Source of the DNA: Eledone cirrhosa
Lineage: Eukaryota
Reading direction: 5' to 3'
DNA: 64,000 nucleotides
NCBI GenBank assembly: GCA_964016885.1
Contig: CAXHJY010000115.1
Coordinates: 22,947-86,946, forward strand
In this document: piece by piece, positions 11,244 to 62,247 of the stretch
How the letters are laid out: each line of letters starts with the position of its first letter
Position numbering within the stretch: the first letter of the stretch is position 1
The notes under the pieces: generated by a model
Databases searched by the model: none
What the model was told of the DNA's origin: nothing
The model's input: the letters and a program-made list of their open reading frames with translations, nothing else
Made by a program: the position numbers and the translations under genes

Positions 11244-11245
11244 TG

Positions 11246-11580: not shown

Positions 11581-11612
11581 AAAGAATAGAGGTGTAACAC
11601 ACAAGTTATTAT

Positions 11613-11995
11613 ATATTGGTAAACGGAATAGAAAATGCTGACAAATTGTTCACAGTTGAAAAATGGTTTAATTAGGAATAAAAGAGTATTAGTGATTGTA
11701 TGGGTTAGTATTCAGTTGTGGTTTTAAGTTTTTAAGTTTTTACCGGTTGCGCATTTCTAAATGCTTTTCAAAAATAATTTTGAGATAGAGTGTCCGTGCG
11801 GATCAGAGCAAACAGCACGGACACTCTATCTCAAAATTATTTTTGAAAAGCATTTAGAAATGCGCAACCGGTAAAAACTTAAAAACTTAAAACCACAACT
11901 GAATACTAACCCATACAATCACTAATACTCTTTTATTCCTAATTAAACCATTTTTCAACTGTGAACAATTTGTCAGCATTTTCTATTCCGTTTAC

Positions 11996-12003
<8 letters not shown>
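11613..12003. repeat. Apparently perfect inverted repeat with ~185-bp arms and a 15-nt spacer, in a (TA)n-bounded cassette
   Basis: ...GAGATAGAGTGTCCGTGC ggatcagagcaaaca GCACGGACACTCTATCTC...; arms match out to TATTGGTAAACGG / CCGTTTACCAATA. Confidence 0.93.
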
Positions 12004-12082
<79 letters not shown>

Positions 12083-14158: not shown

Positions 14159-17100
14159 GTAAGTATTGACTACATCCATCATCAAGGTCTCTTCAGTTGT
14201 GTCAAAGATATGACATCCTCTATGGTCTTATGATAAAATACATTTAATAGGGCCCAGGAATGTATGTGAGCAAGATGTAAGCTACCAGCTCCTCTGAGCA
14301 CTTGGTAGAATGCAGGAATGCATTAACCCTATGGTCAGTAGCTTTACCTTACATTTCAATACTAAAGTCAGTATGGGTAAAGGGTAAAGACCCGCTTCAG
14401 ACACGAATGACCATGGGATTTGTACCTAAAAAGTGCCCCTCCAAAACACAAGTCAGGGCAAGTTTGTGTGTGGAAGACCAACAGTTGCCCATGAAAACCA
14501 GCCTCCCCTCTCCACACCACCGATGTTGTCCAAGGGAAAGGCAAAGGCCGATACAGCTGGGCACCTGTGACATCATAACTCATTTCTACAGCTGAGTAAA
14601 CTGGGGCAACGTGAAATAGTGTCTTGCTCAAAGACACAATGCATCACCTGGTCCAAGAATCAAACTAACAACCTCCCGATTGCAAGCCTAATACTTTAAC
14701 AACTAAGCCATGCACTTTACTGTGTATATACCAACTAATTCTTCCAAAATACTCTCTCCTCTGTCAGTAAAGTCACTATATACCAACCAATTCTTCCAAA
14801 AAAGCTCGTCTTCAGACATGTACTAACTAGTGTAGGTGACTAAAAATGAAGACAGGATTGCTATGAATTCATTTCAACACTAGAATACTGATGTGTTAAT
14901 ATTTTCTATTTTGCAGTACAAGTATCCTTCTGGAGGCGTTTAGGGTACTGGGCAGTTTTATTTGCTGCCTATCTTTTTCTCTTTATTACCATGCCAGTCT
15001 CACTTTGGTTTAGTTTCAAAGTAAGTAATATAGTGTTTTTTTTATATCTTTTAACTAGTCTCCTCCTCCTTCAAGATATAAGGGTCTAACAATTTACTGT
15101 GAGAGCTATACCTTCCCAACCCTCTTCCATTCCTTCCTCTCTATTGTCTATTCCCCTGATCACATTCATGTATTCTTCAATTTCATCCCTCCATCTCCTC
15201 CTCTGTTTTCCCCACATTCCCTCCCTCTCTCCTGTAATCCCCTCCATGGTTCTAACCTGCCTCTATTCACCTAATATTTCAATCTCAAAAAGTCTAAAAA
15301 TTAATAACCAATGATTCATGGAAGAGACATCTTAACCATTCAAAAAACACAAAAACTCTTAACTTCACTTTACAATTATAATAAATTTCTCAGTGTTGAA
15401 ATTCTCACGACACTGTTTGTGACCTGTTGCATAGTTTGTCACCTGGTCACTGACACAGTTCTTCTAAAACATTCCATAATATATCAGATAATAAATTTAT
15501 ATTTACATCAATTAACAGAGAATACCAGCTTATGAAAGAATTGTCATTTTCCGGCTTGGTTTGATGAGGAAAGCTAAAGGACCAGGTATATCATTTTTCT
15601 ATCATTACCATCATCATCATCACCATCATTTTTCTGTTTAGCATGGGTAGTATCTCAGCTTATATTACTCATTATTTATTCACCCATATGTATAATATAT
15701 ATAGATATATAACCAAGTAATACTAAATGGTTTATGTATATATACAATCTTCCTCTGAAGAATCTATTGGGTACAATTCTACGGTAATATATAAATCTCG
15801 TTTATTCCACCGTAGAATTATCAAGTGTACCTAAGGGATGAAACACCATGTAATGAATAAATTTTATTATTAAAAATCTTGCTTTCTCCACCGTATATTT
15901 CTGCTTATATATATATATCATCCTCATCATCATCGTTTAATGTCTATCTTCCACGCTAGCATGGGTTTAGACGGGAATTGTCCCACTTGAGGCAAGATTG
16001 GTCGTCTCACTCGTATAGGACTGTCTGGCAGGTGTTCTATGGCTGGATGCCCTTCCTAACACCAACCACATTTACAGTGTGGACTGGGAGGTTTTTACCA
16101 TGTTACCTACACGGCCACATTATAGCGTTGACTGTGTGTTTTTTTGTCGTGACACCTACGCAACCTCATTTATTTAGGACTGGATGTTGTGGTACCAACA
16201 TAACTTTACAGAGAAAGGGGTGGTGTTGATGGGAGTGGGGGGTGGGAGTTGAGGTAGTGGGATGGGGGTGTATATTTGATTAAGAGGTGCCTACTGACTA
16301 GGTTTTGCTTTGTACTTAGGCAAGACGGGTCTTCTGTATTACTGTGTAGCGCCAAAGATATATATATATATATGTTCTGAGGCTTGACCAGTCAGCTGAT
16401 TATGTCATTTTTATATGTTCCATTCTGGTATGATTTCTACAACTATATGCCCTTCATAACACCTTTACAGTCAGTGGGTACCAGTTGTGCTTTTGTCAGT
16501 TTAACATGAACTCATTTCCTACATTTCAAATGTCAGATTATATTTTGTTCTTTTTTTAAGGTTTTGTATTTTTCCTTCCATGGATTGACCAATGCCATAT
16601 TGTTGACATGAGGACAAAGGCTTTTAATGTTCCTCCTCAGCAGGTACAGTATTTTATTAAATAAAAGTTTAACATAGTGTTTACCTACTTCAATAGCTCT
16701 GGTTTGATTTTAGATCCCTAAATACATAATTACAAAAATATAAATATTTAGATATGATGCAAACCCTAAGTACAGATTATGTAACTAATACACTACAAGT
16801 GTCTTAACCCTTTTATTACCATATTTCTGATGAAAAATGCTACCTTCGATATTCAAATAATTACGAATTTGAAGGGATTTAGAAATAATATTAACTTTCT
16901 AATTATTAAGTTGGCGTTTGGAACAAATGTTCATACATAAAATTATAATTATTTCTACTTTTGGCACAAGGCCAGCAATTATTCCAGTGCATTACTGGTA
17001 CTTTATTTTATCGACCCCGTAAGGATGAAAGGCAAAGTTAACCTCGGCGGGATTTGAACTCAGATCATAAAGGGCCATAACTCTATGGTGCAAAGCATGG

Positions 17101-19462
17101 CGTCCGACCCTCTACCAATACTGCCAATCCACCGCCCTATAAAATTATAATGGAAGGTTTTTAGATAAATATAAATACTTTAAAACAAACAGTTTGGTGT
17201 CATAGAACCAGCAGCAGTTTCAGGCGATTTAGTATCAAAAGGTTTAAGGTTATTTTCCCTGCTAAAACAAGGGTTAGCTTGTCTTACAGCTAGGGCTCAA
17301 CTCTTTATAGTCACCTCTTACAGGGATACAGTGTACCTATTCTAAACCAGATGCACACATTACACACATAAACAACAAAAAATAAGAACATCCTGCTGCA
17401 CACATCTTAGGAACATCATGGAAGTGTGCCAAGTAATGCAGTAAAAACTTGCATGAAACTGTCCAAGAAACGACAACAGCTTCTAATTTAGGCACAAGGC
17501 CAACAATTTTGGGGAGAGGTGGAAAAGTCGATTATATCAACCCCAGTATTTGACTGGCCCTTTATTTTATTGAACCCCAGGAAAGATGAAATGCAGAGTT
17601 GACCTCAGCAGGATATGAACTAAGAATGCAAAGAACCAGAACAAATATCACAAAGCATCTATTTATCACTTCAGCCTATTCCCCACCATAAATAACAATG
17701 AAAACCTAAACCATTTTCCATTATTTTCTTAACAGATTATTATTGCTAAAGGAGCAGCCATTGAGATTGGAGCTGACGTTTATGTTCGTGTTGTGAATGT
17801 TCAGAAGTCTGTAGTTTGTGTCCAAGATCACAACCATTCTGTAAGACTACTTGTACAACTGACCTTGGTCAAGCTATTAACACAGAAAACCTTGGAAGAA
17901 ATAGAACAACAGAAGCATTCTATTTCAGCTATTGTGCAGGTATGTTACATACATATATATATATATATCATTATTTAAGATCCGCTTTCCCTGCTAGCAA
18001 GGGTTGGACAGGTCTCTATATATAGAGAGAGAGAGATGTGTGGCTATGCTGACTTATAACTTGCAGATGCGAGTTACAAGTCAGTATAGCCACACATCTC
18101 TCCATCTCTCTTAAGTTTTGAAAATCATGAAACTTGTGAAACTGGTAAAGTTATAAGTTGCTGTAAATAAACCTTAAAGACTCCAATTACAGTTCCAACT
18201 TCTTTTTCCTATATTTTTACCCAAGTGGTATATATTAAAAAAATCTTACTTTCAAATATATATATATATATATATATATCTATATCCAAAATTAAGATAG
18301 ATTAAAAGAATTCAATCAGAATTATGGGTGTCATTCCTTAACGGAATGTGCCATATCGCCCGGAAAATAAGCTCTAGGACTTTGTAAGTATGAGCATTTT
18401 AATAACTAGGAATTGATCAACATATATATAAATAAATATAAACATGAAAAATCACAGGAGATAATTTTTACAAGCGTGTAACCACGCATGGCTAGTAGGT
18501 AACAAATAAATAAAGTTAACTAGAACTCCAAAATATATACCTTTTAATGATTGCCTTGCTCGTACAGAACTGTTTCCGACTTGGTTTCTACGGCTGGATG
18601 TCCTTCCTAACGCCCACCACATTTATAGTGTGGACTGAGAACTTTGGTGGGGCAGGTGTATGGTGATTGGGGAGGTATAGGGGCATGTGTGAGGAGCAGA
18701 GTGTGAGGACATGGAAGGGTATGGAGGCGAATACTGAGTTCAAATCCTGCCAAGGTTAGCTTTGCCTTTCATCCTTATATGGGTCAATAAAATTGAAGTA
18801 CCAGTCACACACTGAGGTCAATTTAATCAACTTTCTCCTCCCCTAAAATTATTGGCAATGAACCTAAATCAGAAACCATTATTATCGACCCTTTACATTC
18901 AGAATTCAAATCCTGCTGAGGTTAGCTTTGCCTTTCATCCTTATGGGGTCAATAAAATGAAGTACCAGTCACACACTAGGGTTGATTTAATTGATTTTCC
19001 TCTCCTTTAAAATTATTAGCCTTGATTTAAAAAATTAATTAACAAACAAAAACATAGGCAGTGACTTTTGTTAGAAATATGGTAATGAAAGTGTTTAATT
19101 ATATGATAACATTTTCTTTCAGGATGAATGTAACAAGACAACATTTTGCTGGGGAGTTGAGATTAGTCGCTGTGAACTGTAAGTAATAGAAATATTTTAC
19201 CAGTTGTTCCCATTAACAGTCAGATAAGGAGACAAAACAACTGTTTTAAGGCCTTATGGGTTCTATGATAGACTTCATAATTATGTGGGGTCCTTTTTGT
19301 GACTGTGTTTAATGGCAAGAGAAGTACTTAGCGAAAAGTAAACCCTTTAATTGGCATTTGTTGACCTGGAGAAGGCTTTTGACAGAGTCTCCCATTCCAT
19401 TATCTAGTGGGCTCTTAGAAAACTAGGAGTAGATAAGTGGTTCGTGAGAGCAGTTACAAGCC

Positions 19463-38854: not shown

Positions 38855-39941
38855 CAGAGGTTCTTAAGCTTTTGGGGCCATCACACCACGGCCTCGTAAC
38901 ACCCTCAGCGCCCTCAACCCTATTTCTAGGGAGACCTGCCTACACACAAATTGTAAATAATATATAATAACTAAAGTCGTTAATTTATATATAATAAATA
39001 ATATAATATATACTATGTATAAATAAATATTATATATTTTTTATTTTACTATATTTATATATATTATGTATCATTTGATATTTAATATACAGGGTGGTCT
39101 GAAAGTCTTGTCACCCTCTACCAAAAAGAAAATTATAATATTATTATATCATCATCATCATCATCATCATCACCGTTTTACGTCTGTTCTTCCACGCTAG
39201 CATGGGTTAGACGGGTTGTCCTGTTGTGGGCATCGTCCGGTCGGCTGTCCTATCTTGTTCATACGGGAACTGATTCTGGCTGGATTTTTACAGCTGGATG
39301 CCCTTCCTAACACCACCCTCATTTACAGTGAGTGCTGGGTGCTTTTTTCCGTGGCACCTCCACGTCCACTTCTACAGCTGAGTAAACTGGAGCAATGTGA
39401 AATAAAGTGTCTTGCTCAAGGAAACAACACATCACCCGGTCCGAGAATTGAACTCACAACCTTTCGATTGCAAGCCCAAATATATTATAAGAAAATTATA
39501 TTATTATTATTATTATATATTATAATTAATTGTTTCTACTTTTTGGCACAAGGCCAGCAATTATCCCAGTGCATTACTGGTACTTTATTTTATCGACCCC
39601 GTAAGGATGAAAGGCAAAGTTAACCTCGGTGGGATTTGAACTCAGACCATAAAGGGCTGTAACTCTTATATTATATTATTAAAACAAAAAATAATTGTTT
39701 CTACTTTTGGTACAAGGCCAGCAATTATCCCAGGGTATTACTGGTACTTTATTTTATCGACCCCATAAGGATGAAAGGCAATGACAGTTAAAACAATATG
39801 TAAGGGTGACAAGACTTTCGGACTACCCTGTACTATTATATTAATTCTACCGCTCCACAGCATCCCTTAGGCTCCAGCCTTTCACCCTGGACTTTCTCAA
39901 TGTCCCCCTGGGGGTGGTAGCACCCACTTTGAGAACTTCTG
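38855..39941. mobile_element. hAT-like MITE containing a mariner-like MITE (39090-39830), which contains SINE/RTE fragments
   Basis: CAGAGGTTCTTAA / TTGAGAACTTCTG ends with 8-bp ATGTATTT/ATGTATAC; inner TA-CAGGGTGGTCTGAAAGTCTTGTCACCCT / AGGGTGACAAGACTTTCGGACTACCCTG-TA. Confidence 0.7.
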
Positions 39942-40195: not shown

Positions 40196-40277
40196 ATTTA
40201 CCAGTGGTTTCTTGAAAGCAGATATATCTGTTTTCAGTCGTCAGAATATATCTGCTTTCAAGAAACCACTGGTAAAT
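40196..40277. repeat. Short palindrome abutting (TA)n
   Basis: ATTTACCAGTGGTTTCTTGAAAGCAGATATAT ... ATATATCTGCTTTCAAGAAACCACTGGTAAAT. Confidence 0.85.
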
Positions 40278-40740: not shown

Positions 40741-40879
40741 ATATATAGATAAGTTATTCCGTATTGAATCGGAGGTAACCACAGTAAGTAAGGTACTCAA
40801 TACATAGCAGAGTATAAAAGTTTTAATATAGAAGAGCTTCCACAGGACTAGAACTGTTTCATTCGAGAGAAATCATCAG

Positions 40880-40930
40880 GGTTTCCTGATGATTCCTCCC
40901 GAATGAAACAGTTCAAATCCTGTAGAAGCC
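40880..40930 (+). ncRNA. Type I hammerhead ribozyme inside palindrome 40751-41015
   Basis: GGUUUC-CUGAUGA-UUCCUCCCGAAU-GAA-ACAG-UUCAAAUC-CUGU-A-GAAGCC; same family as 11246-11296 with a different but still paired stem I. Confidence 0.75.
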
Positions 40931-41040
40931 ATTTCTATATAAAATATTTATACTCTGCTATGTATTGAGTACCTTACTTACTGTGGTTACCCTTGATTGA
41001 ACCCAGGATAAACTTATATTATATATATATATATATATAT

Positions 41041-41102: not shown

Positions 41103-41113
41103 AGAGAGAGATA

Positions 41114-42031
41114 GAATTAGTATATCTACCAACATATGTATACAGATGTATACTCATGCTAGCAAATATATATGTTATGTTTTAGTACCTTTGTGGTTCT
41201 ATGCAAGGGGATGCAGAACAATTATATGAAAGACGTAAAATAAGAAAATTTTAAAATTAACTTACTTACTAAAATTTTCACTCCAACTAATTAGTTTCTG
41301 TAAGGGAATAAATATAGTTACGCAACGCAACTATAGAGAAATCATTACGTCATCAGGGAGTCTATTCTCAGCTAAGTTCCCAGGCAATGCGCGGACACTA
41401 AAAAATAATAATTCAGTGGATGGAAAAAAGCAAGCGGGGACTAGATTCCAGGGCACTGAAAAAATTCACTGCCTACTTGGTCAGTGGCAAATTCTAAAGA
41501 ATCAATCACGTGACACTGAGGTTAATCAGTGAGAACAATTATATGAAAGACGTAAAATAAGAAAATTGCTAGCATGAGTATACATCTGTATACATATGTT
41601 GGTAGATATACTAATTCTCTATATTTATCTCCAAATTATTTGTTGAGCAAAACTTGCCGAAATTTACTGCTATGGTTCATGGTAGTAGTTAGGCTCTTGT
41701 CTCATCACACTCCACTCCTCACTGATTAACCTCAGTGTCACGTGATTGATTCTTTAGAATTTGCCACTGACCAAGTAGGCAGTGAATTTTTTCAGTGCCA
41801 TGGAATCTAGTCGCCGCTTGCTTTTTTTCCATCCACTGAATTATTATTTTTATATGGGTTCCTAGTGTCTACGCATTGCCTGGGAACTTAGCTGAGAATA
41901 GACTTCCTGATGACGTAAGGATTTCTCTATAGTTGCGTTGCGTAACTATATTTATTCCCTTACAGAAACTAATTAGTTGGAGTGAAAATTTTAGTAAGTA
42001 AGTTAATTTTAAAATGTTCTTATTTTACGTC

Positions 42032-42037
<6 letters not shown>
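41114..42037. mobile_element. Rearranged double-inverted non-coding cassette between (TA)n tracts
   Basis: 41114-41165 is inverted at 41566-41620; about 41222-41532 is inverted at 41717-42037; homologous to 61890-62240. Confidence 0.8.
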
Positions 42038-42090
<53 letters not shown>

Positions 42091-46667: not shown

Positions 46668-46757
46668 TATAAAGAAAAAAAGATGCAATCGAAAATGCAA
46701 CTGGAGTCTTAAATAAGACTCCAGTTGCATTTTCGATTTCATCTTTTTTTCTTTATA
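46668..46757. repeat. Palindrome in a (TA)n-bounded cassette
   Basis: ATCGAAAATGCAACTGGAGTCTTA aa TAAGACTCCAGTTGCATTTTCGAT. Confidence 0.85.
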
Positions 46758-46790
46758 TTTATATATATATATATATATGTATATAATGAA

Positions 46791-47118
46791 GGCGCATGGC
46801 TTAGTGGTTAGAGCATTGGGTTTGCAATTGAGAGGTTGTGAGTTCGATTCTCGGACCAGGTGATGCGTTGTGTCCTTGAGCAAGACACTTTATTTCACAT
46901 TGCTCCAGTTTACTCAGCTGTAGAAATGAGTTGCAACGTCACTGGTGCCAAGCTGTATCGGCCACTAGCTTTCCCTTGGACAACATCAGTTGCGTGGAGG
47001 GGGGAGGCTAGTGTGCATGGGCGACTGCTGGTCTTCCACAAAACAAACCTTGCCAAGTCTTGTGTCTCGGAGGGAAACTTTGTAGGTGTAAAACAATGGT
47101 CATTCATGACCGAGTGGG
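46791..47118 (+). mobile_element. Full-length tRNA-derived CORE-type SINE
   Basis: A box TGGCTTAGTGG, B box GTTCGATTC, CORE-like TGTGTCCTTGAGCAAGACACTT...CAGTTTACTCAGCTGTAGAAATG; partial copies near 6025, 26519, 39370 and 47342. Confidence 0.85.
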
Positions 47119-47473
47119 GCCAAAGCAATATATATATTATATATCATCATCTTCATTTTACGTCCACTTTTCCCTACTTGCAAGGGTGGGACGGGAACTG
47201 ATTCTGGCTTGATTTCTACAGCTGGATGCCCTTCCTAACACCAACCTCATTTACAGTGAGTGCTGGGTGCTTTTTTCCCATGGCACCTCCACGACCACTT
47301 TGCAGTGGAATGATAGGGACCCCAGTCCCTATCATCTCATTTCTACAGCTGAGTAAACTGGAGCAATGTGAAATAAAGTGTCTTGCTCAAGGACACAACA
47401 CATCACCTGGTCTGAGAATTGAACTCACAACCTGTCGATTGCAAGGCCAATGCTCTAACCACTAAGCCATGTG

Positions 47474-47548
<75 letters not shown>

Positions 47549-47828
47549 TTTTGTGTGAGTACCATCAGCAGAAAATGCACAGTTACATGTGACAAACAAA
47601 CAGCTGCATCGTCAGCCACCTTATTGGCGTACAATTTCACACATTAAGGTTGTATTGCACTTGTAATACCAATGTGTGCACCAGAATGGAGTACGACACT
47701 GTTGGTAAGGTACATGTGAAACGACAACAAAAGAAAGAATGGACAGGAAAAATTTACATTTGATAAAAACCGAGATAAATACGTAAAAAATGACGACTAG
47801 AAATAAATAGTAAAGAGAGAGTTTGACA

Positions 47829-47866
47829 TCTATATATATATAACTGAGGATGTCTGTCTGTCTGTA
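47829..47866 (+). mobile_element. Helitron 5' end, separated from its 3' part
   Basis: A|TCTATATATATAACTGAGGATGTCTGTCTGTCTG resembles the 5' end at 52100. Confidence 0.65.
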
Positions 47867-48015
47867 ATACACTGGGATCATTTTAATCGACTTTCCCCTC
47901 CCCTCAAACTGTTGGCCTTGTGCCCAAATCAGAAATCGTTATTTCTAACGAAACATTGCCTATAGTTTTTTAATTTTCAAAATAATCAAGAATATGAAGA
48001 GATTGAGTAATATAG

Positions 48016-48070
<55 letters not shown>

Positions 48071-48130
48071 TAGATATAGATAGATAGATAGGTAAATATA
48101 CACGGGTGTGTATGATTGTGTATAGAAGAT

Positions 48131-48267
48131 TATATTAATAAGAGGAATTCCAACTTTGTCTGATTTACTCGTTTTATTTACAATCCTTTAAAATTTATAA
48201 CGGTATTATAAATTTTAAAGGATTGTAAATAAAACGAGTAAATCAGACAAAGCTGGAATTCCTCTTA

Positions 48268-48275
<8 letters not shown>
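48131..48275. repeat. Near-perfect palindrome (~70-bp arms, 5-nt spacer) in (TA)n
   Basis: ...TTTAAAATTTATAA cggta TTATAAATTTTAAA... Confidence 0.9.
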
Positions 48276-48313
<38 letters not shown>

Positions 48314-48344
48314 GCCGGTGGTGTGAACTTAACAAAGGTTCTTA

Positions 48345-48750
48345 CATAAAAAATATAATTGTTTCTACTTTAGGGACAAGGCCAGCAATTATCCAGTGTA
48401 TTACTGGTACTTTATTTTATCGACCCCGTAAGGATGAAAGGCAAAATCAACCTCGGCGGGATTTGAACTCAGAATGACAAGGGCCGTAACTCTATGCGTC
48501 AAAGCATGGTGTCCGACTCTCTACCGATACTGCCAATTACATAAAAATATAATTGTTTCTACTTTTGGCACAAGGCCAGCAAATTACCCAGTACATTACT
48601 GGTACTTTATTTTATCGACCCCGTAAGGATGAAAGGCAAAGTTAACCTCGGCGGGATTTGAACTCAATTACATAAAAATATAATTGTTTCTACTTTAGGC
48701 ACAAGGCCAGCAATTACCCAGTGCATTACTGGTACTTTATAAAAATATAA
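48345..48750 (-). mobile_element. Three tandem partial SINE copies inside a TTAA MITE
   Basis: TTACATAAAAATATAATTGTTTCTACTTT.GG.ACAAGGCCAGC restarts at about 48342, 48537 and 48668. Confidence 0.8.
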
Positions 48751-49758
48751 TGAAAGGTTTTAAGATTAATATATATATACTTTAAAATAAATAGTTTTAG
48801 ATCGTAGAATCAGTAGCGATTTCAGACAGTTTGGTATCAAAAGGGTTAAGGCTATTTTATGAAATGGTAAATAAAAATATGTGTAAATATATATTTTTTC
48901 TATTAACCAGTTTATAAGTTTCTCAGTAATATTTGGGTTCATATTGTTCAATGTCAAGTTTAAGGGTTATCTATATATCTCTCAGTAATCTGCGTTGTTG
49001 TAATCATTGAGACCAGGTTTTTCGATCGATGTTTCTTCTCCCTTGATTCCCCAAGTCCCAAAGACCATTAAGTGAAGTATTTTGTCCTGCAGTGCTATTA
49101 CTAATTATGGTAGAGAACCTTTCATATCATATAATACTTAATGTGAGGTGGATTTAGGTTAGGGATACTCAAAACGTTTTAGACTACTAACCCTTCATGG
49201 AATCATTGATCCCTCAGGCATGTAAAAAGATAAACAAATACCTAAATATATCAGTAAACAATATAAAATAAATAGACAATAAAAACTAATTATATACAGG
49301 GCGTGGCAGAAAAAACTCCCATACTTTAATCGATCAACCATTAAAATGAGGGAGGTATTTTGCCGCACCTTGTATCAATCAGAAACCTGTATAATCAAGT
49401 TGTATTTGATGGTGTTTGTTCTACGTTCTAGGTTCAAATCCCACCGAGGTTAACTTTACCTTTCATTCTTCCAGAGCAGATAAAATAAACTACCAGGCAA
49501 CCATAGGGGCCTATATATTCCCCACCACCCAAATTACCGGTCTTGTAGAAACCATTATTTTATGTATTTCAATTTCTTATGCTAAAGAGAGGTTTTGGTC
49601 CGAAAGTTCAGTCGATCCCTTGGGTAAGTCTCATTAACCACTGGGGTTTGATATCCTTAACCTTGGTGACCCCTGACTTAGGTCAATGAAGAGTTTTATG
49701 TTGGTGACTAGATATGAGCCACCGACTTTCAGTTTATTGTCCGTTACTTTATCTACAA

Positions 49759-50212
49759 CTAGCAGTGGTACCCAGTGTTGCACGGGATAAGGTATTTTGG
49801 AACTCAGGCCGCCAACAGACCTAATCGTGAAAAAACTGCAAGCCTGGACAATATGTAAAGAAAATAAACCGAATACTCTGATGGCTGGATAATCTTTAAG
49901 ATTTTCCTCGGTGAAACAGGAAAAATTCAGGTTTTCACCTAATGCGGGCTCAAGAAAATGAATTTTTTTAATGCAATAATATGCCTTGAAATTTCGGGAA
50001 AATCAGCTAGACGTAACGCCTCCAAAAAACCTCTAAAAAGCTGAAAAAATAAAGTTTTCACCTAGGCCATAAGAATTTTCTTTGCTCACGGTATGAAGAA
50101 GAGACTGACTAATACATAGTTACAATTTCACGGAAATCGGTCTGACGTAACGCCTCAAAGAAGCCCTAAAAAGCTGGAAAAAAAATGCAGTTTTTCATCT
50201 AATGCGGGCCCC
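49759..50212 (-). mobile_element. Helitron 3' portion
   Basis: Minus strand ends CCCGTGCAACACTGGGTACCACTG-CTAG|T, matching the hairpin + CTAG end at 53494-53521. Confidence 0.7.
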
Positions 50213-50466
50213 TTATTTATATTAATCTTAAAACCTTTCATTATTGGATTGGCAGTATCGGTAGAGGGTCGGACGCCATGCTTTCCAGCATAGTTACGTC
50301 CCTTTACGATCTGAGTTCAAATCCCGCCGAGGTTGACCTTGCTTTCATCCTTACGGGGTCGATAAAATAAAGTACCAGTAATACACTGGGTAATTGCTGG
50401 CCTGTGCCTAAAGTAGAAACAATTATATTTTTATGTAAGAACCTTTGTTAAGTTCACATCACCGGC

Positions 50467-50521
<55 letters not shown>

Positions 50522-51123
50522 ACACATAAATTATCGAGAATCGCATTTCGGCCCACGAAATAACGAAAAACAACCTCCGAGATGTGTGGCAAGTGCTCAA
50601 TGATTCAGATGAACCAGAGCTATAACAAACGTTAAAGGCCAAACACACTGAGACGATGGTTAAACAATCATTCGCATAGCCAAAAAAACGATCAAGTAAT
50701 TCGGGTCAAACAAATAAAAAATATCTGTGATTGAAAATTTACCCGGACCCCTGGAAGGTTGGTAAAATCCAGTATTTGGGTTTCTGCGGCTTCTAAATCA
50801 AGTACTGTCCGTTTACATAAATAATGTTAGGCTTCTGGTAAGATGATTGAACAAAGAAGCCACTTTCTCAACAGGTTTTAGTTCAATGTTAATACAAGGA
50901 TTGACACTTGCTGACCCTACGTGGGGATCGGCAAGGGAGGCAACCCCTATATCAGGCGAATGAATTCAGTTGTGTATATTTTTTGCAAGAATGCAAAAAC
51001 ATCACAAATCGAATATATATATATATATGTATATATATATACAAATGAATATATGATAGGGATAAACACTGATACAAGTATACATGTGTTTGCATTGTAA
51101 AAGACTATTTGAGTTTATAACTC

Positions 51124-51178
<55 letters not shown>

Positions 51179-52099
51179 AAGCTATATTACTCAATCTCTT
51201 CATATTCTTGATTATTTTGAAAATTTAAAAACTATAGGCAGTGTCTTTCTTTAGAAATAATGATTTCTGATTTAGGCACAAGGCCAACAGTTTGAGGGGA
51301 GGGAAAAGTTGATTAAATCGACGCCAGTGTATTACTGGTGCTTTATTTTGTCGACCCCGTAAGGATGAAAGGTAAAGCTAACCTCGCTGGATTTGAACTC
51401 TGTCAAGCAACCCCCCCCTCTTTCATTAGAAATAAGGATAATAAAAGGGTTAAAGAAGAAACTTCATAATGTCATGAAGAACTGACAAACTTTATTGACA
51501 AACCCTGTAAGAAACCCCCTTTTTTTCACAAACCCGTAAAATATTTTAGTAAACCCAACCCTTTAGTTCTGTAAGAATCCAGACTGGAGAGAAGCACTGG
51601 CCTAGAACTTCATACGCAGTAAATAAACTGAAACCAATTTTAATGCAGTTGGAATTACTGACTCACATCCATGCGTGATTGTTTACAATTGGTAGCTTTG
51701 ATCATTGTTTAACTTCAGCCACTGCAAAACAAACAATCGATCATGTTTCAACTTGTTATATCTTCGCTTACACAGTCGATTGAATTATGACACTTACGTT
51801 TGCTGTGAGTAATGTATACCAACCGAGAGAACTTAGTGGGAGATCGTTCGACCTGCTAGAGACAGCAGTCAAATTTTCATCACATTGGAGCCTTTATTTC
51901 GGTCCCTTTGTTATCAACTCGCGCTAAACTGCTTCTGGTTCTATAAACAACACCATCCATTTTTCCTATTTAATAACAATTTTGATTTTGAGCATTAGTT
52001 TCAAGACTGCTGGAACGATCGTATTCTCGCGGAATTCCTCGATCTAGCGCGAACTATCATGTCTACACACACGCGCGCGGGCATATATCTCTATCTCTC

Positions 52100-53520
52100 T
52101 CTATATATAAAACGGAAGATGTCTGTCTGTGTGTGTGTATGATTTTTATACATTTCCACATTTCTCTACCGATTTTGATGATTTTTTTCCAATGTGCTCC
52201 AAATTTACCAACGATGGTCAACGCGTAATAAGCTTTGCCAAAAGTTTCCTGCTTCTATGAAAAAAATCGATAAAACTAAATACATGCTGTAACCCTCTCT
52301 CTTACACGCTTAATCACTCTCTCTACTAACAGCGACAAAACTTCGTTCAGGAACGCGACATAAACTTTGAAAACTAAGCACACATCATTTTATACAACAA
52401 CAAACATAGTCATAACGCTCTCTCCGTCGCTCTTCCCTCTCTCTATAATATATCATTCCCCCTCTCTATAATTTAACTGCTTTACTCTTTTCATGCTTTG
52501 AGGTTTAACACACCTCACTATAGTTTCTTAGCTTTACTCTCTCCGTCGCTCTTCTCTCTCTCTCTATAATAGATTATTCCCCCTCTCTAAAATTTAACTG
52601 CTTTATTCTCTCTGTCGCTCTTCACTCTCTATATGACAACACTGTTTTACACACCTCCCTATAGTTTCTCAGCTTTATTCTCTCCGTCGCTCTTTCCTCT
52701 CTCTCTCTATAATTTAACTGCTGGGGAAGTCATTGGAGTTCCGTATTGACATACGGCTTTTCTTAGGTATTTTAAAACGGCTTCTCGCAAATAACAACCC
52801 GCAAAATAACACTTCATATAACAGATTAATGCTATAGACATATGAATCGGAATGTTTAAATTATTTATTTTTTTACGACTTTCATTGGTTAAATATTAAT
52901 ATGACAACACCCATAGTGTTGTACTTCTGGCAATTCTGCCGAATACACTGCCAAGGATGAACCTTTTCCCCTCGGCGTCAGATATCCCGTTCGATTTCCG
53001 GCGATCCCAATTCCCGATGAAACCATGTTTTGCCATGTCCATTAACAAGTCACAGGGGCAAACATTGTCGGTGGCGGGCATCCATTTTGGGGAGCCATGC
53101 TTCTCCCATGGTCAACTTTATGTTGCCTGTTCCCGCGCAGGGAGCAGGAATGGACTTTTTGCTTACTCTCCTCAAGGGATGACACGCAATATCGTTTACA
53201 AAGAGGTGCTATAGATGTTGGTGCAGGTGTTGGAGCTATGCCGTCTGGAAAACTATTTCCTGGTAGAGTCACTCATGGCAGACAGATCTGACACCCAGCG
53301 GCATCAGGACCACCACCTTTGGTCTGCTAAATTCGCTATTGGAAGATTATTAACCCATCATTGACTGTCCAAAATGCTAATTGGTTCGTAACTATTAATA
53401 ACCGGTTCAACTGCTTTATGCACTTAATTGATAAGCTTATTCGCTTTCAAACCACGTTTACCTGTATGTAACTTTTCATAGCAAATGAACAAACCCGAGC
53501 AACGCCGGGCTAAACTGCTA

Positions 53521-53521
<1 letters not shown>
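52100..53521 (+). mobile_element. Non-autonomous Helitron with a PIF1-type helicase C-terminal remnant (52957-53214)
   Basis: 5' TCTATATATAAAACGG; 3' CCCGAGCAACGCCGGG hairpin + CTAG|T; peptide RRSQFPMKPCFAMSINKSQGQTL...FSHGQLYVACSR...TRNIVYKEVL. Confidence 0.92.
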
Positions 53522-53570
<49 letters not shown>

Positions 53571-53971
53571 ATATTTGGGGAGGGTCATATTTGCGTAATA
53601 TTGCCAGAATTAATAACAGAACACACTCACTGTTTGGTTGGTTTTCGCTTCTCGCTGTCTTTTATATATATATATCTGCGATCTAACTTACTCGGTCCTC
53701 AATGTTGCCATTGACTGACCGGCGGTCAAAAATAATACAGATACAATATAGACAACATAAACACACACTAGTCACCCAGCAGACACAACACTATACACAC
53801 TAGTCACACATCACACATAACACTATACACACACGCAAACGCATGCGCAAAGAAGACAAAATAAAATAAGATAAACAAACAAGCAAATAAATAAATAAAT
53901 ATATAGACAGACTGAACAAAAAAAATGGCGTAGACATACAACACAACAGGAGGAACAATGAATATAACACC

Positions 53972-54006
53972 ACTGACGATGTTGCAAATGTGCAACGAAA
54001 GATTTA
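53972..54006 (+). ncRNA. Hammerhead-like core in the pLTR (also about 58100-58135 on + and about 7095-7130 on -)
   Basis: CUGACGA-U-GUUGCA(AAUG)UGCAAC-GAAA; stems I and III are not convincingly paired. Confidence 0.45.
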
Positions 54007-54195
54007 TGTAAACTATATATATATGTGTTTGTCTATATTGTATCTGTATTATTTTTGACCGCCGGTCAGTCAATGGCAACATTGAGGACCGAGTAAGTTA
54101 GATCGCAGATATATATATATAAAAGACAGCGAGAAGCGAAAACCAACCAAACAGTGAGTGTGTTCTGTTATTAATTCTGGCAATATTACGCAAAT

Positions 54196-57100
54196 ATGAC
54201 CCTCCCCAAATATAACAATATCTGTTTCGACACACGATTTCATATAAAAAACCTCGCAAAACTAATTCATCGCCGCTATGGCATTAGCTTGTGCCAAGCT
54301 GAAAGGTTATTGAAAGACACTGTTTTCTGTTATATAAAAACTACAATAACAACAGAACAAATCCGCTTCTTAAAACACTGTGTTTCCTCCAAAACATACA
54401 CAACAAACATATCAAAACAAGTAAATAATTTATTATTGAACAAAACACAAGCTGAACGGCTAAAACACACAATAACAGTTAATATGAAAAGAACAACATA
54501 CACAAAAGTCAACGCACTCTACAGACAAAAACGCATCAACGGTAAGGAAATCCGAAATCTCATCACAGCAAACGAGAGAGATGACTTCATGAGCGTCATC
54601 CGACGCGAAACGAAATATGCTCAAAACGAATGCTGTAGGCATTTCAAGAAGAAATTAGAATGGATGAATAAGAAAAAACTACAAGAAAGGAAAATCGAAT
54701 ATTCTCAAAAATACCCAGATAACATCGACAACATCCGTATGAGTGATGTAAAACTACCGGAAGAATTTACCAATGACCACACAGTAAATATCTATGGGAA
54801 CACTTTAATCAGTGAACAAGAACAACAAATCCTAAAGTTACCACCAAAATTTGCCATCTACAAAAAGATTAATCCTATGGAATGCAAAACGGAGCTGGAA
54901 AAGTGTTTCACAAAAATACGTTGGAATGCAAAGGTAAACAACAACAACAATAATAACGGTAGTAGTAATATAAACAATAACTCTGGGTATAGAAATAACA
55001 GCCATAACCATAACAATGGCAGGAAAGTGAGAAATAGTGATAATGGTAATAATACTAGCGATAGACAGAACAACAACAACCACAATAATAATAATAATAG
55101 AAACGTTAACCACAGACACAGCAACAGTGACCACAGTAGTAATAACGGTAACAATACGAACAACAACAACAACAATAACCACAGTGGTAATAATGGAAAT
55201 AGTACATGTAGCAACATCAACAAAAACAAGAAACATAATAATAGTAACAACCACAATGGTAGAAATAGCAGTAACAACAACAACAATAACGGTGAAGTAA
55301 ACAACAATACATCTAGCAATCATAACAATAATAATATTAATGCTAAGGATAGAAACAACAACAACCACCATGATAACAATAATAGCAACACACACAACTA
55401 TGACGATAGAAATAACGACAACCCCTTAGAGAAACTATTTTTCAACCCAGCTGACAAAACATATAAGATGGGTAATATCTATCCTACGAGGTTACCCTTT
55501 AATAAAAGAGTTTGCATACCACAACAAATAGATGACGAGACGGAGGCACAGTTCACCATAGCTAGAAATAAGATTAGACAAGTAGTAGACAGGTACACTA
55601 TGAGACAGAGCAGACCAGAGGCCCAACAACTTGGGATAAAACCTGTAGAAGGCTTGGTTAGCCTCAAGCAGCGCACAAGGGATGGTGAGGTAGTGTGTCT
55701 ACCCACAGATAAGTCTGGTAGGATGTCAATAGATAGCATGCCGAACTACATCGAGGCAATGCAACCCCACATCACCAACACGAGCGAAGTTGCACAACTA
55801 ACACACGATGGGAGAGAAAAAATCCTCAACGCTCACATGATGATGGGGACTGACATCCTAAAGCCAAGCAGACGCACTGCCAACAACTTCCAGGCGTCTA
55901 ACAATGGCATACCACCCTTGTATGGGCTCCGCAAAGACCACAAGACTGTCGACGACCCGACAATAGGACCACCAACAAGACCTGTATGCGGAGCTAATAT
56001 AGCTAGCAACTACAGGATCTCCTACTTCCTCTCAATGGTTATACGCCCCATAATCAAGATGTCCCCAGATGTATGTGAAAGTACAGAGGACCTCCTCAGC
56101 AGAATCAGTGAGTGCAACAAAAACAGGAGCCTATCCAACTGCATAATAGGCAGCATGGATGTGGTGTCACTGTACCCATCCATTAACATTGATTTTGCTG
56201 TGAAAAGATGTGTGGAGATGATCATTGAGAGTGAGGTGGAGTTCTGCGACGTCGACACAGACGAACTGGGCCTCCTACTTAGACTTACCTACGACACTGA
56301 CTACCTAGACAGCCATGACCTTAGATGTTTCTGCCCTAGTAGACCTATAAGAGGTAGACCCCCCACCATAACCTCAATGGCTAAAAAGACTCCCATAGGA
56401 AGGTGGATTGGGTGGACCAAAGCTATACGGACCCCCCAAAACACTGATCAGGTAAGAAAAATGGTCGCACATGCAATAGGGGCTAGTATCAAAACTACCC
56501 TAAAGGGCCACATATTTAAGTTCAATGAGAAAATCTACACCCAAAATGAGGGAGCAGCCATCGGCGTCAGCATAGCTGGCGATGTTGCCAACCTTTTCAT
56601 GGTATGGTGGGAAAGGAGACTTAAAGATCTCCTTAATGAAAGCTCCATAGACCTCATCATGTACTCTCGTTATGTAGACGATATCAATATAGTTATAAGA
56701 ACACCCCCACTAGAGAGCACTAACAAGTTTGATTTAGAACGTAGCACGATGGAAAGCATCCAGCAGATAGCTATTTCCATACACCAGAGTATAACTGTAA
56801 CTATAGACTTCCCTTCCAAACACCCTAACAATAGACTACCTGTATTAGACACAGAACTCTGGATCAACACTATAGACGAGAGAGCCCAAATTCTCCACTC
56901 ACACTATGCTAAACCCATGGCCTCCAAATACCTGATACTCAAAAACTCAGCAATGTCCAGTAGTGCTAAGTTTAATATTCTGATCGCAGATTTGGTACGA
57001 GTGATGAAGAATGTGTCCAGCATGTGCGACCCAACAGAAATGGAAGGACACATCCAACACTTCATCAACCGCATGCAGTTCTCTGGCTACAACCAAAGAG

Positions 57101-57828
57101 ACAGAGTCAGAGTATACGAAGGAGCCATGGAAAAGTATAAGACCCTCATAGAACTGGACATGAAAGGAATTTGCCCACTATACAGGAGCAAATCATGGAA
57201 TAACTTAGATAGGGCTAGACATAAGATAGGGAAGGCCACATCATGGTACGACAACCAGAGATATCAGAGTGTCATGTTTGTGGACGCCACCCCTGGAGGG
57301 AAATTAGCTAACCAGTGTAGAAAGGCCCTGAGAAAGACCCACTTAAAAATAAAGGTGGTAGAAAAGCCAGGAACCACCATAAAATCCCTGATCAGCAAAA
57401 CCTACCCTTTTAAGAAAACCCACTGTACCAATAGGAAATGTATCATATGTAAGGTGAACCCCCGGATAAACTGTAAAACTAGAAACGTAGTCTATAGCAT
57501 AAGATGTACAGAGGGTACTTGCAGAAACACGACAACAACATACATAGGTGAGACAGCTCGTAGCATAGGTGAAAGGATAGACCAACACTGGGGGGAACTA
57601 AAAGGACGAAAAAACGGGTCAGTACTATACGAACATGCTAGACAACATCATGACGGTAACATAGACAACATAGAAATTAGAATAATATCTAAACATAGGA
57701 ATGACCCAGCAGATAGGCAAATCAGAGAGGCCAGTGAAATAGAAATTAGAAGACCAAAGCTAAACAGAAAGAATGAGTGGAACAACAACAACACCCAAAC
57801 AAACAACACTGACCTAAGAGAAGTATAA
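54196..57828 (+). CDS. Penelope-like polyprotein: RT + GIY-YIG endonuclease, with an Asn-rich insert, 1210 aa
   Basis: PTDKSG, PPLYGLRKDHK..PTRPVC, SMDVVSLYPSI, GAAIG, YSRYVDD, LPVLD; VVYSIRC..C..YIGET..RI..H..R..EA..I..LN; no stops. Confidence 0.95.
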   Translation: MTLPKYNNICFDTRFHIKNLAKLIHRRYGISLCQAERLLKDTVFCYIKTTITTEQIRFLKHCVSSKTYTTNISKQVNNLLLNKTQAERLKHTITVNMKRTTYTKVNALYRQKRINGKEIRNLITANERDDFMSVIRRETKYAQNECCRHFKKKLEWMNKKKLQERKIEYSQKYPDNIDNIRMSDVKLPEEFTNDHTVNIYGNTLISEQEQQILKLPPKFAIYKKINPMECKTELEKCFTKIRWNAKVNNNNNNNGSSNINNNSGYRNNSHNHNNGRKVRNSDNGNNTSDRQNNNNHNNNNNRNVNHRHSNSDHSSNNGNNTNNNNNNNHSGNNGNSTCSNINKNKKHNNSNNHNGRNSSNNNNNNGEVNNNTSSNHNNNNINAKDRNNNNHHDNNNSNTHNYDDRNNDNPLEKLFFNPADKTYKMGNIYPTRLPFNKRVCIPQQIDDETEAQFTIARNKIRQVVDRYTMRQSRPEAQQLGIKPVEGLVSLKQRTRDGEVVCLPTDKSGRMSIDSMPNYIEAMQPHITNTSEVAQLTHDGREKILNAHMMMGTDILKPSRRTANNFQASNNGIPPLYGLRKDHKTVDDPTIGPPTRPVCGANIASNYRISYFLSMVIRPIIKMSPDVCESTEDLLSRISECNKNRSLSNCIIGSMDVVSLYPSINIDFAVKRCVEMIIESEVEFCDVDTDELGLLLRLTYDTDYLDSHDLRCFCPSRPIRGRPPTITSMAKKTPIGRWIGWTKAIRTPQNTDQVRKMVAHAIGASIKTTLKGHIFKFNEKIYTQNEGAAIGVSIAGDVANLFMVWWERRLKDLLNESSIDLIMYSRYVDDINIVIRTPPLESTNKFDLERSTMESIQQIAISIHQSITVTIDFPSKHPNNRLPVLDTELWINTIDERAQILHSHYAKPMASKYLILKNSAMSSSAKFNILIADLVRVMKNVSSMCDPTEMEGHIQHFINRMQFSGYNQRDRVRVYEGAMEKYKTLIELDMKGICPLYRSKSWNNLDRARHKIGKATSWYDNQRYQSVMFVDATPGGKLANQCRKALRKTHLKIKVVEKPGTTIKSLISKTYPFKKTHCTNRKCIICKVNPRINCKTRNVVYSIRCTEGTCRNTTTTYIGETARSIGERIDQHWGELKGRKNGSVLYEHARQHHDGNIDNIEIRIISKHRNDPADRQIREASEIEIRRPKLNRKNEWNNNNTQTNNTDLREV

Positions 57829-58744
57829 ATAAATAAGTAAATTAAATTAAATAAAATAAGATAAATAAATACATACACAAGCACATAAACACACACTAGT
57901 CACCCAGCAGACACAACACTATACACACTAGTCACACATCACACATAACACTATACACACACGCAAACGCATGCGCAAAGAAGACAAAATAAAATAAGAT
58001 AAACAAACAAGCAAATAAATAAATAAATATATAGACAGACTGAACAAAAAAAATGGCGTAGACATACAACACAACAGGAGGAACAATGAATATAACACCA
58101 CTGACGATGTTGCAGATGTGCAACGAAAGATTTATGTAAACTATATATATATGTGTTTGTCTATATTGTATCTGTATTATTTTTGACCGCCGGTCAGTCA
58201 ATGGCAACATTGAGGACCGAGTAAGTTAGATCGCAGATATATATATATAAAAGACAGCGAGAAGCGAAAACCAACCAAACAGTGAGTGTGTTCTGTTATA
58301 TATTCTGGCAATATTACGCAAATATGACCCTCCCCAAATATAACAATATCTGTTTCGACACACGATTTCATATAAAAAACCTCGCAAAACTAATTCATCG
58401 CCGCTATATATATATATATAGTGAAGAAGTCAGAGGAGTTGATGCGAGAGGTGGAGACTGTTGATGAGTGTAGGGCTGACAATGAACGAGAGTACGACGA
58501 AGTATCTGGTAGAGAACATGAAGGAGCCAGAGAAAATGATGAATGTTAGGGGGAGGGGGTGTAGAGCTGGTTGAAGACTTCCTGTATTTGGGAGCAAAGA
58601 GGATGATGTAGAGAGAGAGAGTGGAGAGATAGGGACAGACTAACAGAGACAGATAGACAAAGACAGATAGAAAGAGAGAATGGTCAGAGACACAGAAGAG
58701 ATAGAGGCAACATAGATAGATAGATACATAGATAGATAGATATG

Positions 58745-61833: not shown

Positions 61834-62245
61834 AGGCAAAAGGGATATTTAATTTGTTGGTAATTCAACAAATATAAATGTTATTAAGGTATGTTTTATA
61901 TTATTGTTCTGCATCCTCCTGCATTGAACCACCTAGGTACTATGACATAACCTGTGTATTTGCTGGCATTAGCGTACATCTGTGCGCTTATGTTAGTAGA
62001 TATATTAAATTATCTATATTTATCTCCAAATCACTGATTTGTCGAGCAAACCTGCCAAAACCACTTCTAAATTTTTTGGGGGTGTTAGTAGGCGTCTGTC
62101 ATCTTACCATCCCATTCCTACTGACTAGCCTCTGTGTCACGTGATTGATTCTTTAGAGTCGGCCATATGACCAGTGGCAGTGAGAATTTTCAGTACCTGG
62201 AATCCAGTCCTCGATAGCTGTTCCATTTACCGAATTATTATTATT
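61834..62245. mobile_element. Diverged relative of the 41.1-42.0 kb cassette
   Basis: TTGTTCTGCATCC..GAACCAC..GGTACTA..; CTATATTTATCTCCAAAT; GTGTCACGTGATTGATTCTTTAGA shared. Confidence 0.7.
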
Positions 62246-62247
62246 AT

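What the first reader, a model, noticed from the sequence alone, without database searches (positions are those of the whole stretch)
47829..51453. Reconstructable staggered-break inversion that splits a Helitron and a MITE
Seen: segment X (about 47867-48780) is present in inverted, diverged form at about 50215-51335. A Helitron 5' end (+, 47829) and 3' end (-, 49759) are on opposite strands. Both TIRs of one TTAA MITE read AAAGGGTTAA on the + strand (48840 and 51444). The SINE truncated at 47867 continues intact beyond 51335. Flipping 47867-50212 restores a TC...CTAG Helitron in an A|T site and a MITE colinear with 16804-17247. Established: inverted duplications at breakpoints mark staggered-break or template-switch inversions. 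The two X copies carry different inserts in their (TA)n tract, so the event is old rather than an assembly artefact (inference).
Basis: partly seen in the sequence, partly recalled or inferred. Interest (0 to 1): 0.7.

Follow-up and report, generated by a model that had tools for sequence, protein, structure and literature searches.

The report
Small octopus inversion with duplicated edge
In repeat-rich, non-coding DNA of an octopus relative, two jumping-gene relics each lie in halves that point opposite ways around a duplicated 0.4-kb piece, likely the scar of one old 2-kb flip made during DNA repair: a neat, readable example of a known kind of mutation with no sign of a gene being hit.

Summary
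Segment X (47864-48780) recurs inverted at 50214-51335 (91-92% identity). A Helitron 5' end (47829, +) and 3' end (49759, -) sit at the two junctions. Both ends of one TTAA-flanked MITE read on the same strand. Flipping the middle and dropping one X copy gives a MITE skeleton colinear with the copy at 16804-17247 (178 of 222 aligned bases) and a 492-bp Helitron. Its ends resemble those of an intact, helicase-bearing Helitron at about 52100-53521. The host is an octopod. The copies differ at 15 of 229 orthologous sites, so the event is old (very roughly 5-16 My on a borrowed clock), not an assembly duplication. The label 'staggered-break' is not established: the product equals a type 1-3-4-2 template switch, which I slightly prefer (about 50% against 35%). 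That the Helitron halves are one family could not be tested, and the restored A|T and TTAA sites are not independent evidence. No gene is touched. A known class of event; interest low.

The parts
47829..47865 (+). H5: 5' 37 nt of a non-autonomous Helitron (A|TC, short TA run, (GTCT)n)
   Evidence: 86.5% over 37 nt to the 5' end of the intact Helitron at 52098-52134
47864..47865 (.). Left junction: 2-nt microhomology (GT) shared by the Helitron microsatellite and the SINE at 51335-51334
47864..48780 (+). X: duplicated interior of the MITE, beginning inside SINE2; lacks the MITE 5' end
47864..47938 (+). 3' part of SINE2 within X (cut at the junction)
48019..48310 (.). (TA)n tract of X holding a 145-bp palindrome (48131-48275, 95% arms)
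48342..48740 (-). Three stacked SINE1 pieces, each beside a copy of the same AT-rich target (about 48359-48537, 48553-48666, 48684-48740)
48781..48849 (+). Unique 3' end of the MITE with terminal repeat and TTAA (48840-48849)
48850..49758 (.). Inverted single-copy spacer; holds an old SINE (49416-49574), no coding match found
49759..50213 (-). H3: 3' 455 nt of the Helitron (about 2.3 internal repeat units, hairpin, CTAG|T)
   Evidence: no Pfam match in 3 of 3 sense frames
50213..50214 (.). Right junction: MITE interior stops just before the conserved CTTT and Helitron sequence begins
   Evidence: compared with X, the 16.8-kb copy and the 26-kb copy
50214..51335 (-). X': second copy of the MITE interior; lacks the MITE 3' end
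50519..51123 (.). Insert in the (TA)n tract of X', single-copy in the window, unidentified
   Evidence: no Pfam match in 6 of 6 frames of 50519-51012
51244..51435 (-). SINE2 (about 51400-51262), continuous across 51335, with a 17-bp target duplication
51421..51453 (-). Unique 5' end of the MITE with terminal repeat and TTAA (51444-51453)
16804..17247 (+). Reference: unrearranged MITE of the same family
   Evidence: 178 of 222 aligned bases match the rebuilt skeleton; score 214 against a maximum of 65.5 in 500 shuffles
52088..53521 (+). Reference: intact Helitron of another family with a helicase fragment (52900-53214); exact 5' base uncertain (52088-52100)
   Evidence: best solved-structure match Helraiser, E 1e-18

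Best explanation
This is likely the scar of one old local rearrangement that flipped about 1.4 kb of single-copy DNA and copied about 0.4 kb of a neighbouring MITE's interior into inverted position, most likely by templated repair of a single break inside a small Helitron. Shown by the sequence: the two inverted X copies, the Helitron ends at the two junctions, the same-strand MITE ends, the cut SINE and the 2-nt microhomology at the left junction. Inferred ancestor: flank, whole Helitron, spacer, whole MITE (minus strand, already holding SINE2 and a (TA)n tract), flank. Inferred steps: (1) a break or stall 37 nt inside the Helitron 5' end, in its (GTCT)n run; (2) the free 3' end paired through GT with the opposite strand inside SINE2, about 1.9 kb away; (3) synthesis ran backwards through the MITE interior, the MITE 3' end, the spacer and the Helitron body, stopping at or near the original break; (4) the new end was joined to the start of X', replacing the old forward copy of the middle. 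This is switch order 1-3-4-2. Later, different inserts entered the two (TA)n tracts and extra SINE1 copies probably stacked into X. I put about 0.9 on the rearrangement and its polarity, and about 0.5 on this route rather than staggered breaks.
For: Geometry and coordinates. X and X' are sister copies of one MITE insertion: MITE-only sites differ 8 of 157 between them against 41 of 150 from the 16.8-kb copy (Fisher p 9e-8), and both share SINE2 and the (TA)n tract, which that copy lacks. The window has only 2 Helitron 5' cores and 2 CTAG|T ends with the core motif: one pair forms the intact neighbour, the other pair sits at the two junctions. Each half resembles the matching end of the neighbour (scores 56.5 and 36 against shuffle maxima 27.5 and 29.5 in 100 shuffles). 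For the route: order 1-3-4-2 gives an inverted repeat with an inverted spacer and made up 23% of high-confidence human-chimp events (PMC5453318, passages); one lesion suffices where the rival needs two within 2 kb (inference); a younger knot at 41.1-42.0 kb has three junctions with short microhomology and a 36-bp templated insert, suggesting templated repair acts in this region.
Against: Short-range template switches in apes copy far less (median 12, maximum 128 nt in the gold-standard set of PMC7954356, passages) than the 1.85 kb or more needed here. A 2-nt microhomology is common by chance and is also used by end joining. No templated insert is visible at either junction. One-sided duplications of this size are the common outcome in the staggered-break data (12 of 18; median 321 bp; PMC1885836, passages). 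The Helitron interior matches nothing in the window (score 60.5 against shuffle mean 66), and its start does not align to the neighbour's 5' subterminal region (378 of 500 shuffles score as well), so family identity of the halves and loss of bases at the join are untested. The rebuilt empty insertion sites match no spanning repeat in the window. No related genome could be consulted.
Confidence: 0.5

Rival explanations
1. Same ancestor and product, but made by two breaks: a blunt one in the Helitron and a staggered one (nicks about 0.4-0.5 kb apart, or offset breaks on sister chromatids) across the MITE interior, followed by flipping, fill-in and end joining.
For: In Drosophila 17 of 29 inversions carry inverted duplications; 12 of 18 are one-sided, median 321 bp, at most about 1.9 kb, and a staggered-plus-single-break scenario is drawn explicitly (PMC1885836, passages). 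The shared skeleton here is 155 + 256 nt plus a (TA)n tract. No Helitron sequence is duplicated at the other end.
Against: It needs two lesions within about 2 kb and unwinding of about 0.45 kb (about 1.1 kb if the X' insert is older than the event). The cited cases are chromosome-scale inversions. The left junction has microhomology. Nothing in the sequence is specific to this route.
Confidence: 0.35
2. Two sister MITE copies inserted separately in opposite orientation, one inside the Helitron; ectopic recombination between them flipped the middle, and later deletions removed one terminal repeat from each.
For: Inverted transposon copies are an established cause of inversions (own knowledge; PMC2775673 seen as a search listing only). 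The family has several copies in the window.
Against: Recombination would leave two whole MITEs, each with both ends and TTAA. Each copy instead lacks the complementary end and stops exactly at a Helitron half, with no TTAA at either junction. Two separate, exactly placed deletions would be needed.
Confidence: 0.07
3. Assembly artefact: a fold-back chimera, or two haplotypes joined head to head.
For: The window is rich in (TA)n tracts and palindromes, and no reads were available. Alleles can differ by inserts.
Against: The copies differ at 15 of 229 orthologous sites (6.6%, 95% interval 3.7-10.6%), while a fold-back copy would be near-identical. The left junction shares only 2 nt, too little for an overlap join. 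The flipped middle is single-copy.
Confidence: 0.04
4. The Helitron halves are unrelated: the 5' end at 47829 pairs with the 3' end at 53521 as one long element, and the end at 49759 is an orphan.
For: The 47829 end is 86% like the neighbour's 5' end and lies on the same strand as 53521.
Against: The 53521 end already has its own 5' end near 52100. No minus-strand 5' core exists in the window for 49759. This reading leaves the split MITE, the cut SINE and the duplication unexplained.
Confidence: 0.04

Closest known systems
Type 1-3-4-2 / 3-1-2-4 template switch, four-point model (PMC5453318, passages read)
   Same: Inverted repeat around an inverted spacer from two switches; identical order of switch points.
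   Different: The copied stretch here is 1.85 kb or more, against tens of bases in the ape sets (maximum 128 nt in PMC7954356). It is inferred from split transposons inside one genome, not from a second genome.
Staggered-break inversions of the Drosophila melanogaster group (PMC1885836, passages read)
   Same: Inverted duplication at one breakpoint, a few hundred bp long, diverged copies (88% on average there, 91-93% here), polarity readable from the duplication.
   Different: There the inversions are chromosome-scale and the duplicated DNA is non-repetitive. Here the whole event spans about 2 kb and the duplicated DNA is a transposon interior.
[quoted passage not shown]
   Same: A single break and microhomology-primed synthesis on the opposite strand.
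   Different: Those inversions are 17-33 nt, flanked by existing inverted repeats, and gain no duplication.
Non-autonomous Helitrons with a (CTGT)n run near the 5' end, such as lepidopteran Hel-2 (PMC4344730, passages read)
   Same: 5'-TC, 3'-CTAG, A|T flanks, 3' hairpin, tetranucleotide run near the 5' end.
   Different: No sequence comparison with Hel-2 was made; no 5' subterminal inverted repeat was looked for; the element here is in two pieces with internal tandem units.
piggyBac-type (TTAA) MITE
   Same: TTAA flanks, ends starting CCC, short terminal inverted repeats (about 11 nt including TTAA), about 240-bp skeleton, no coding sequence.
   Different: The superfamily label rests on recalled terminal features; no autonomous partner was found or sought.

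Membership tests
Inversion with breakpoint inverted duplication | The same ancestral single-copy segment at both ends, in inverted orientation | tested here: met
   sister copies, 8 of 157 against 41 of 150 differences, shared SINE2 and (TA)n tract
Inversion with breakpoint inverted duplication | The segment between the copies is inverted relative to the ancestor | tested here: met
   Rebuilt MITE colinear with 16804-17247; Helitron ends on opposite strands. Shown from paralogues in the window, not from an orthologue.
Inversion with breakpoint inverted duplication | An outgroup shows the uninverted, single-copy state | not testable with these tools
   No octopod genome collection; two scans of bacterial and archaeal contigs gave 0 and 2 hits, neither aligning to 47500-53600
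Staggered-break (isochromatid or chromatid) inversion | Two physical breaks, fill-in and end joining, little or no loss at the unduplicated end | tested here: inconclusive
   No duplication at the Helitron end; loss cannot be measured without a family consensus
Template switch / MMBIR product (1-3-4-2) | Switch-point order 1-3-4-2 | tested here: met
   Order derived; definition in PMC5453318. Staggered breaks give the same order.
Template switch / MMBIR product (1-3-4-2) | Microhomology or templated inserts at the junctions | tested here: inconclusive
   2 nt at the left junction; right junction not scorable; no insert seen
Helitron (non-autonomous) | 5'-TC, 3'-CTRR, inserted between A and T | tested here: met
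   features as stated in PMC4344730
Helitron (non-autonomous) | Hairpin about 10-12 nt from the 3' end | tested here: met
   6-bp stem with one bulge, ending 12 nt before the last base; weak (z -0.8)
Helitron (non-autonomous) | Ends like those of an element linked to a Rep-helicase | tested here: met
Helitron (non-autonomous) | Both halves map to one family consensus | not testable with these tools
   No second copy in the window; the O. vulgaris consensus library is on Zenodo, and the 17-nt 5' motif is absent from the 1 supplementary file held
TTAA MITE (piggyBac-type) | Terminal inverted repeats with TTAA flanks, non-coding, several copies | tested here: met
TTAA MITE (piggyBac-type) | An autonomous piggyBac partner with the same ends | not tested
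   None seen among the window's ORFs scanned; no genome to search
Ectopic-recombination inversion between inverted transposon copies | Two whole or chimeric copies with crossover inside the repeat and own target sites | tested here: not met
   Each copy lacks one end; junctions lie at Helitron sequence with no TTAA

The most novel reading that the evidence does not exclude
The Helitron caused the flip itself: synthesis primed at its nicked 5' end stalled after 37 nt in the (GTCT)n run and jumped to the opposite strand 1.9 kb away. With the younger knot at 41.1-42.0 kb, this would mean kilobase-scale inversions with one duplicated edge are a frequent, overlooked way in which repeat-rich octopod DNA is reshuffled, and that they can be counted and dated in a single genome from the transposons they split. 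For it: the break lies in the first 37 of at least 492 nt (about 7.5% by chance, inference) and a second knot lies 6 kb away. Against it: one case only, and a (TA)n tract inside the duplicate is unremarkable (16% of 410-bp windows hold one). One literature search for this mechanism listed 4 papers, none on it by title or start of abstract.
Probability: 0.1. Interest if true: 0.55.

Novelty: new member of a known kind. Interest (0 to 1): 0.24.

Why it matters
It shows that nested transposons let a small inversion be polarised, ordered and roughly dated without an outgroup, and it falls in a size range (1-2 kb) between the short template switches catalogued in apes and the chromosome-scale inversions of flies. 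By itself it changes nothing: one event in transposon debris, the nearest recognisable host gene (a VWA5A-like ORF ending at 33823) lies 14 kb away, and the mechanism is ambiguous. It would matter more if a genome-wide count showed such events to be common in octopods or tied to Helitron ends.

Tried and rejected
Searching bacterial and archaeal contigs for stray host DNA with this Helitron: 0 hits for the 5' motif; 2 hits for the 3' motif, neither aligning to 47500-53600. Rfam at gathering threshold: 0 matches; ARAGORN: 0 genes. Pfam on the X' insert and Helitron body: 0 of 9 frames matched. Rebuilt empty insertion sites: no spanning repeat. A tree of 12 SINE copies to tell which stacked piece in X is the orthologue of the one in X': 0 of 9 inner branches supported, so SINE1 was left out of the dating. 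Clustered differences next to the left junction as a sign of error-prone synthesis: by eye they split evenly between the copies against other SINE copies, so rejected. (TA)n tract as trigger: not enriched. The small SINE hairpin at the left junction (z -2.25, 8 of 200 shuffles) is present in 11 places in the window, so only a lead. The inverted pair 46790-46933 / 47333-47476 was considered as part of the event and rejected: both match a repeat found elsewhere in the window. A search for octopus structural-variant papers listed 10, none on this by title or start of abstract.
Full report
Setting. The window is animal DNA from an octopod. The ORF at 31679-33823 has VIT and VWA domains, and its ten best relatives are all octopod proteins: 79% identical to an Octopus bimaculoides VWA5A and 69-77% to Argonauta. 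It is dense in retroelements, microsatellites and palindromes. The finding lies wholly in non-coding transposon debris: no ORF inside 47.8-51.5 kb that was scanned matched Pfam (3 of 3, 9 of 9 frames), and Rfam and ARAGORN found nothing in the window.

The observation. A masked self-comparison finds 47864-48018 in reverse at 51335-51179 (91.7%, E 3e-58) and 48311-48537 in reverse at 50469-50248 (91.2%, E 3e-83). The last 40 nt of X match down to 50214. A|TC stands at 47828|47829, CTAG|T at 49762-49759|49758 on the minus strand, and AAAGGGTTAA at 48840 and 51444 on the plus strand. The SINE cut at the left junction continues past 51335 to about 51400 and has a 17-bp target duplication with one mismatch. 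The inserts in the (TA)n tracts differ as stated. All coordinates are right to within 3 nt.

Two internal references. The MITE at 16804-17247 is unrearranged. With SINEs and (TA)n removed, the locus's 5' end, interior and 3' end, put in the inferred order, align to it end to end: 178 of 222 aligned bases, score 214 against a maximum of 65.5 in 500 shuffles. The 47829 end is 86.5% identical to its 5' end over 37 nt, and the 49759 end aligns to its 3' end above all 100 shuffles, but the interiors do not align, so it is another family. The window holds 2 matches to the 5' core and 2 CTAG|T ends with the core motif; one pair makes the intact element and the other pair sits at the two junctions. 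That makes one split 492-bp element the simplest reading, but it is not a family test. The restored A|T and TTAA sites are not independent evidence, because each half keeps its own flank in any scenario.

X and X' are copies of one insertion. In MITE-only sites they differ at 8 of 157 positions, against 41 of 150 between X and the 16.8-kb copy (p 9e-8). Both carry SINE2 and the (TA)n tract, which that copy lacks. Counting MITE and SINE2 sites gives 15 of 229 differences (6.6%; 95% interval 3.7-10.6%). With the rate implied in PMC13282606 (distance 0.065 taken as 18 My in O. vulgaris; passages) this is about 9.5 My, range 5-16; the clock is borrowed from another species and is rough. SINE1 was left out of this count. 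X holds three stacked pieces and X' one; the 5' part of the first piece differs from X' at 10 of 64 sites, more than X' differs from the 16.8-kb copy (6 of 66); and a tree of 12 copies had 0 of 9 supported branches. The SINEs read sense on the strand opposite to how they first appear (a B-box-like motif, label recalled), and most of the 14 matched ends lie against an AATAAT- or ATAAT-like site, which would explain repeated insertion at one spot.

Junctions. On the left, the Helitron's (GTCT)n run and the SINE share GT, 2 nt. On the right, X' stops just before the CTTT conserved in X and in two other family copies, and Helitron sequence follows; microhomology there cannot be scored without the Helitron consensus. 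No part of the Helitron 5' end is repeated at the start of the 3' part, so the duplication is one-sided. The flipped single-copy stretch is 1433 bp and the shared skeleton is 155 + 256 nt plus the (TA)n tract.

Mechanism. Two routes give exactly this product. Staggered breaks: in the Drosophila study 17 of 29 inversions carry inverted duplications, 12 of 18 are one-sided, median 321 bp (PMC1885836, passages), a good size match. Template switching: order 1-3-4-2 creates an inverted repeat around an inverted spacer and made up 23% of high-confidence human-chimp events (PMC5453318, passages), though such events are short (median 12, maximum 128 nt; PMC7954356, passages); a single-break, microhomology-primed version has been proposed for microinversions (PMC8755829, abstract and passages). 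I prefer the single-break templated route slightly, because one lesion explains both why copying stops where it began and why all lies within 2 kb, whereas the rival needs two lesions this close (inference). A younger knot at 41109-42040 points the same way: inverted copies of 53 bp (100%) and about 311 bp (304 of 311 aligned bases), a 36-bp exact direct copy inserted at a junction, and short microhomologies; its ancestral state is only partly resolved. I put 0.5 on templated repair, 0.35 on staggered breaks, 0.07 on ectopic recombination plus deletions, 0.04 on artefact and 0.04 on unrelated Helitron ends.

Inferred order of events: MITE insertion at TTAA; SINE2 insertion and growth of the (TA)n tract; Helitron insertion nearby (time relative to these unknown); the inversion with duplication; then separate inserts in the two (TA)n tracts and probably the extra SINE1 pieces. 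Whether the 600-bp X' insert predates the event cannot be told; if it does, the duplicate was about 1.1 kb.

What could not be done. No octopod genome, reads or repeat library was reachable. Scans of bacterial and archaeal contigs gave nothing useful. The O. vulgaris library is on Zenodo, and the one supplementary file held showed no match to the two motifs; bioRxiv supplements were closed and might hold cephalopod repeat libraries. Searches for a prior description (listings only) showed none for this locus, but the library lacks most subscription journals. PMC4344730 was read as passages.

Verdict. A real, old, well-resolved small inversion with a one-sided inverted duplication: a new instance of a known kind. 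No gene is affected. Interest 0.24.

Noticed in passing
window 41109-42040 (related copy at 61847-62247): A second, younger inverted-duplication knot between (TA)n tracts: 41113-41165 recurs inverted at 41618-41566 (53 bp, 100%), 41223-41533 inverted at 42040-41718 (304 of 311), and 41215-41250 is copied directly at 41532-41567 (36 bp, 100%); junctions show about 2-nt microhomology. The ancestral order is not fully resolved.
   Followed up: partly
window about 52088-53521 (+): Intact Helitron with a C-terminal helicase fragment (52900-53214; Helraiser E 1e-18) and an internal tandem repeat (52418-52694), 650 bp from the finding.
   Followed up: yes
window 16945-17138, 48342-48740, 50246-50430; empty site at 26040-26020: The same SINE subfamily sits at the same site and orientation in MITE copies whose own sequence differs by 27% (41 of 150) while the SINE cores differ by 5% (6 of 111; p 3e-6); a copy near 26 kb lacks it. 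Likely independent insertions at a preferred ATAAT-like target, also stacking in tandem (48342-48740, 39502-39781).
   Followed up: partly
window 54175-57828 (+), repeats at 53563-54279 and 57853-58407; second copy 6891-9187 (-): A 1217-aa open frame flanked by direct and inverted copies of a 190-550 bp repeat, with a 94.8% identical broken copy at 6.9-9.2 kb. It looks like a young Penelope-like retroelement (label from recalled architecture; Pfam gave no match).
   Followed up: no
window 9081-9409: Two 44-45 bp pieces of that element are repeated, one inverted and one direct, beyond a (TA)n tract; probably a 5'-end rearrangement at insertion.
   Followed up: no
window 4590-4669, 6685-6789, 11242-11343, 11610-12004, 18036-18097, 40196-40277, 40774-40991, 46668-46757, 48131-48275: Many unrelated near-perfect palindromes of 60-400 bp, several against or inside (TA)n tracts; possibly TA-targeting foldback elements.
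   Followed up: no
window 26053-26433 (+) and 31679-33823 (+): An SCP2-domain coding stretch (Pfam E 1.6e-8) whose upstream part overlaps MITE-like sequence, and an intronless VWA5A-like ORF. Gene models not worked out.
   Followed up: partly
window 9539-10484: Deleted mariner-like element with about 104-nt terminal inverted repeats and a transposase HTH remnant.
   Followed up: no
L002:2501-2529 (-): A Helitron-like 3' end (hairpin plus CTAG|T) in a contig of a Rubritalea metagenome-assembled genome, amid sequence that does not look bacterial by eye; possibly host contamination; unrelated to this locus.
   Followed up: no
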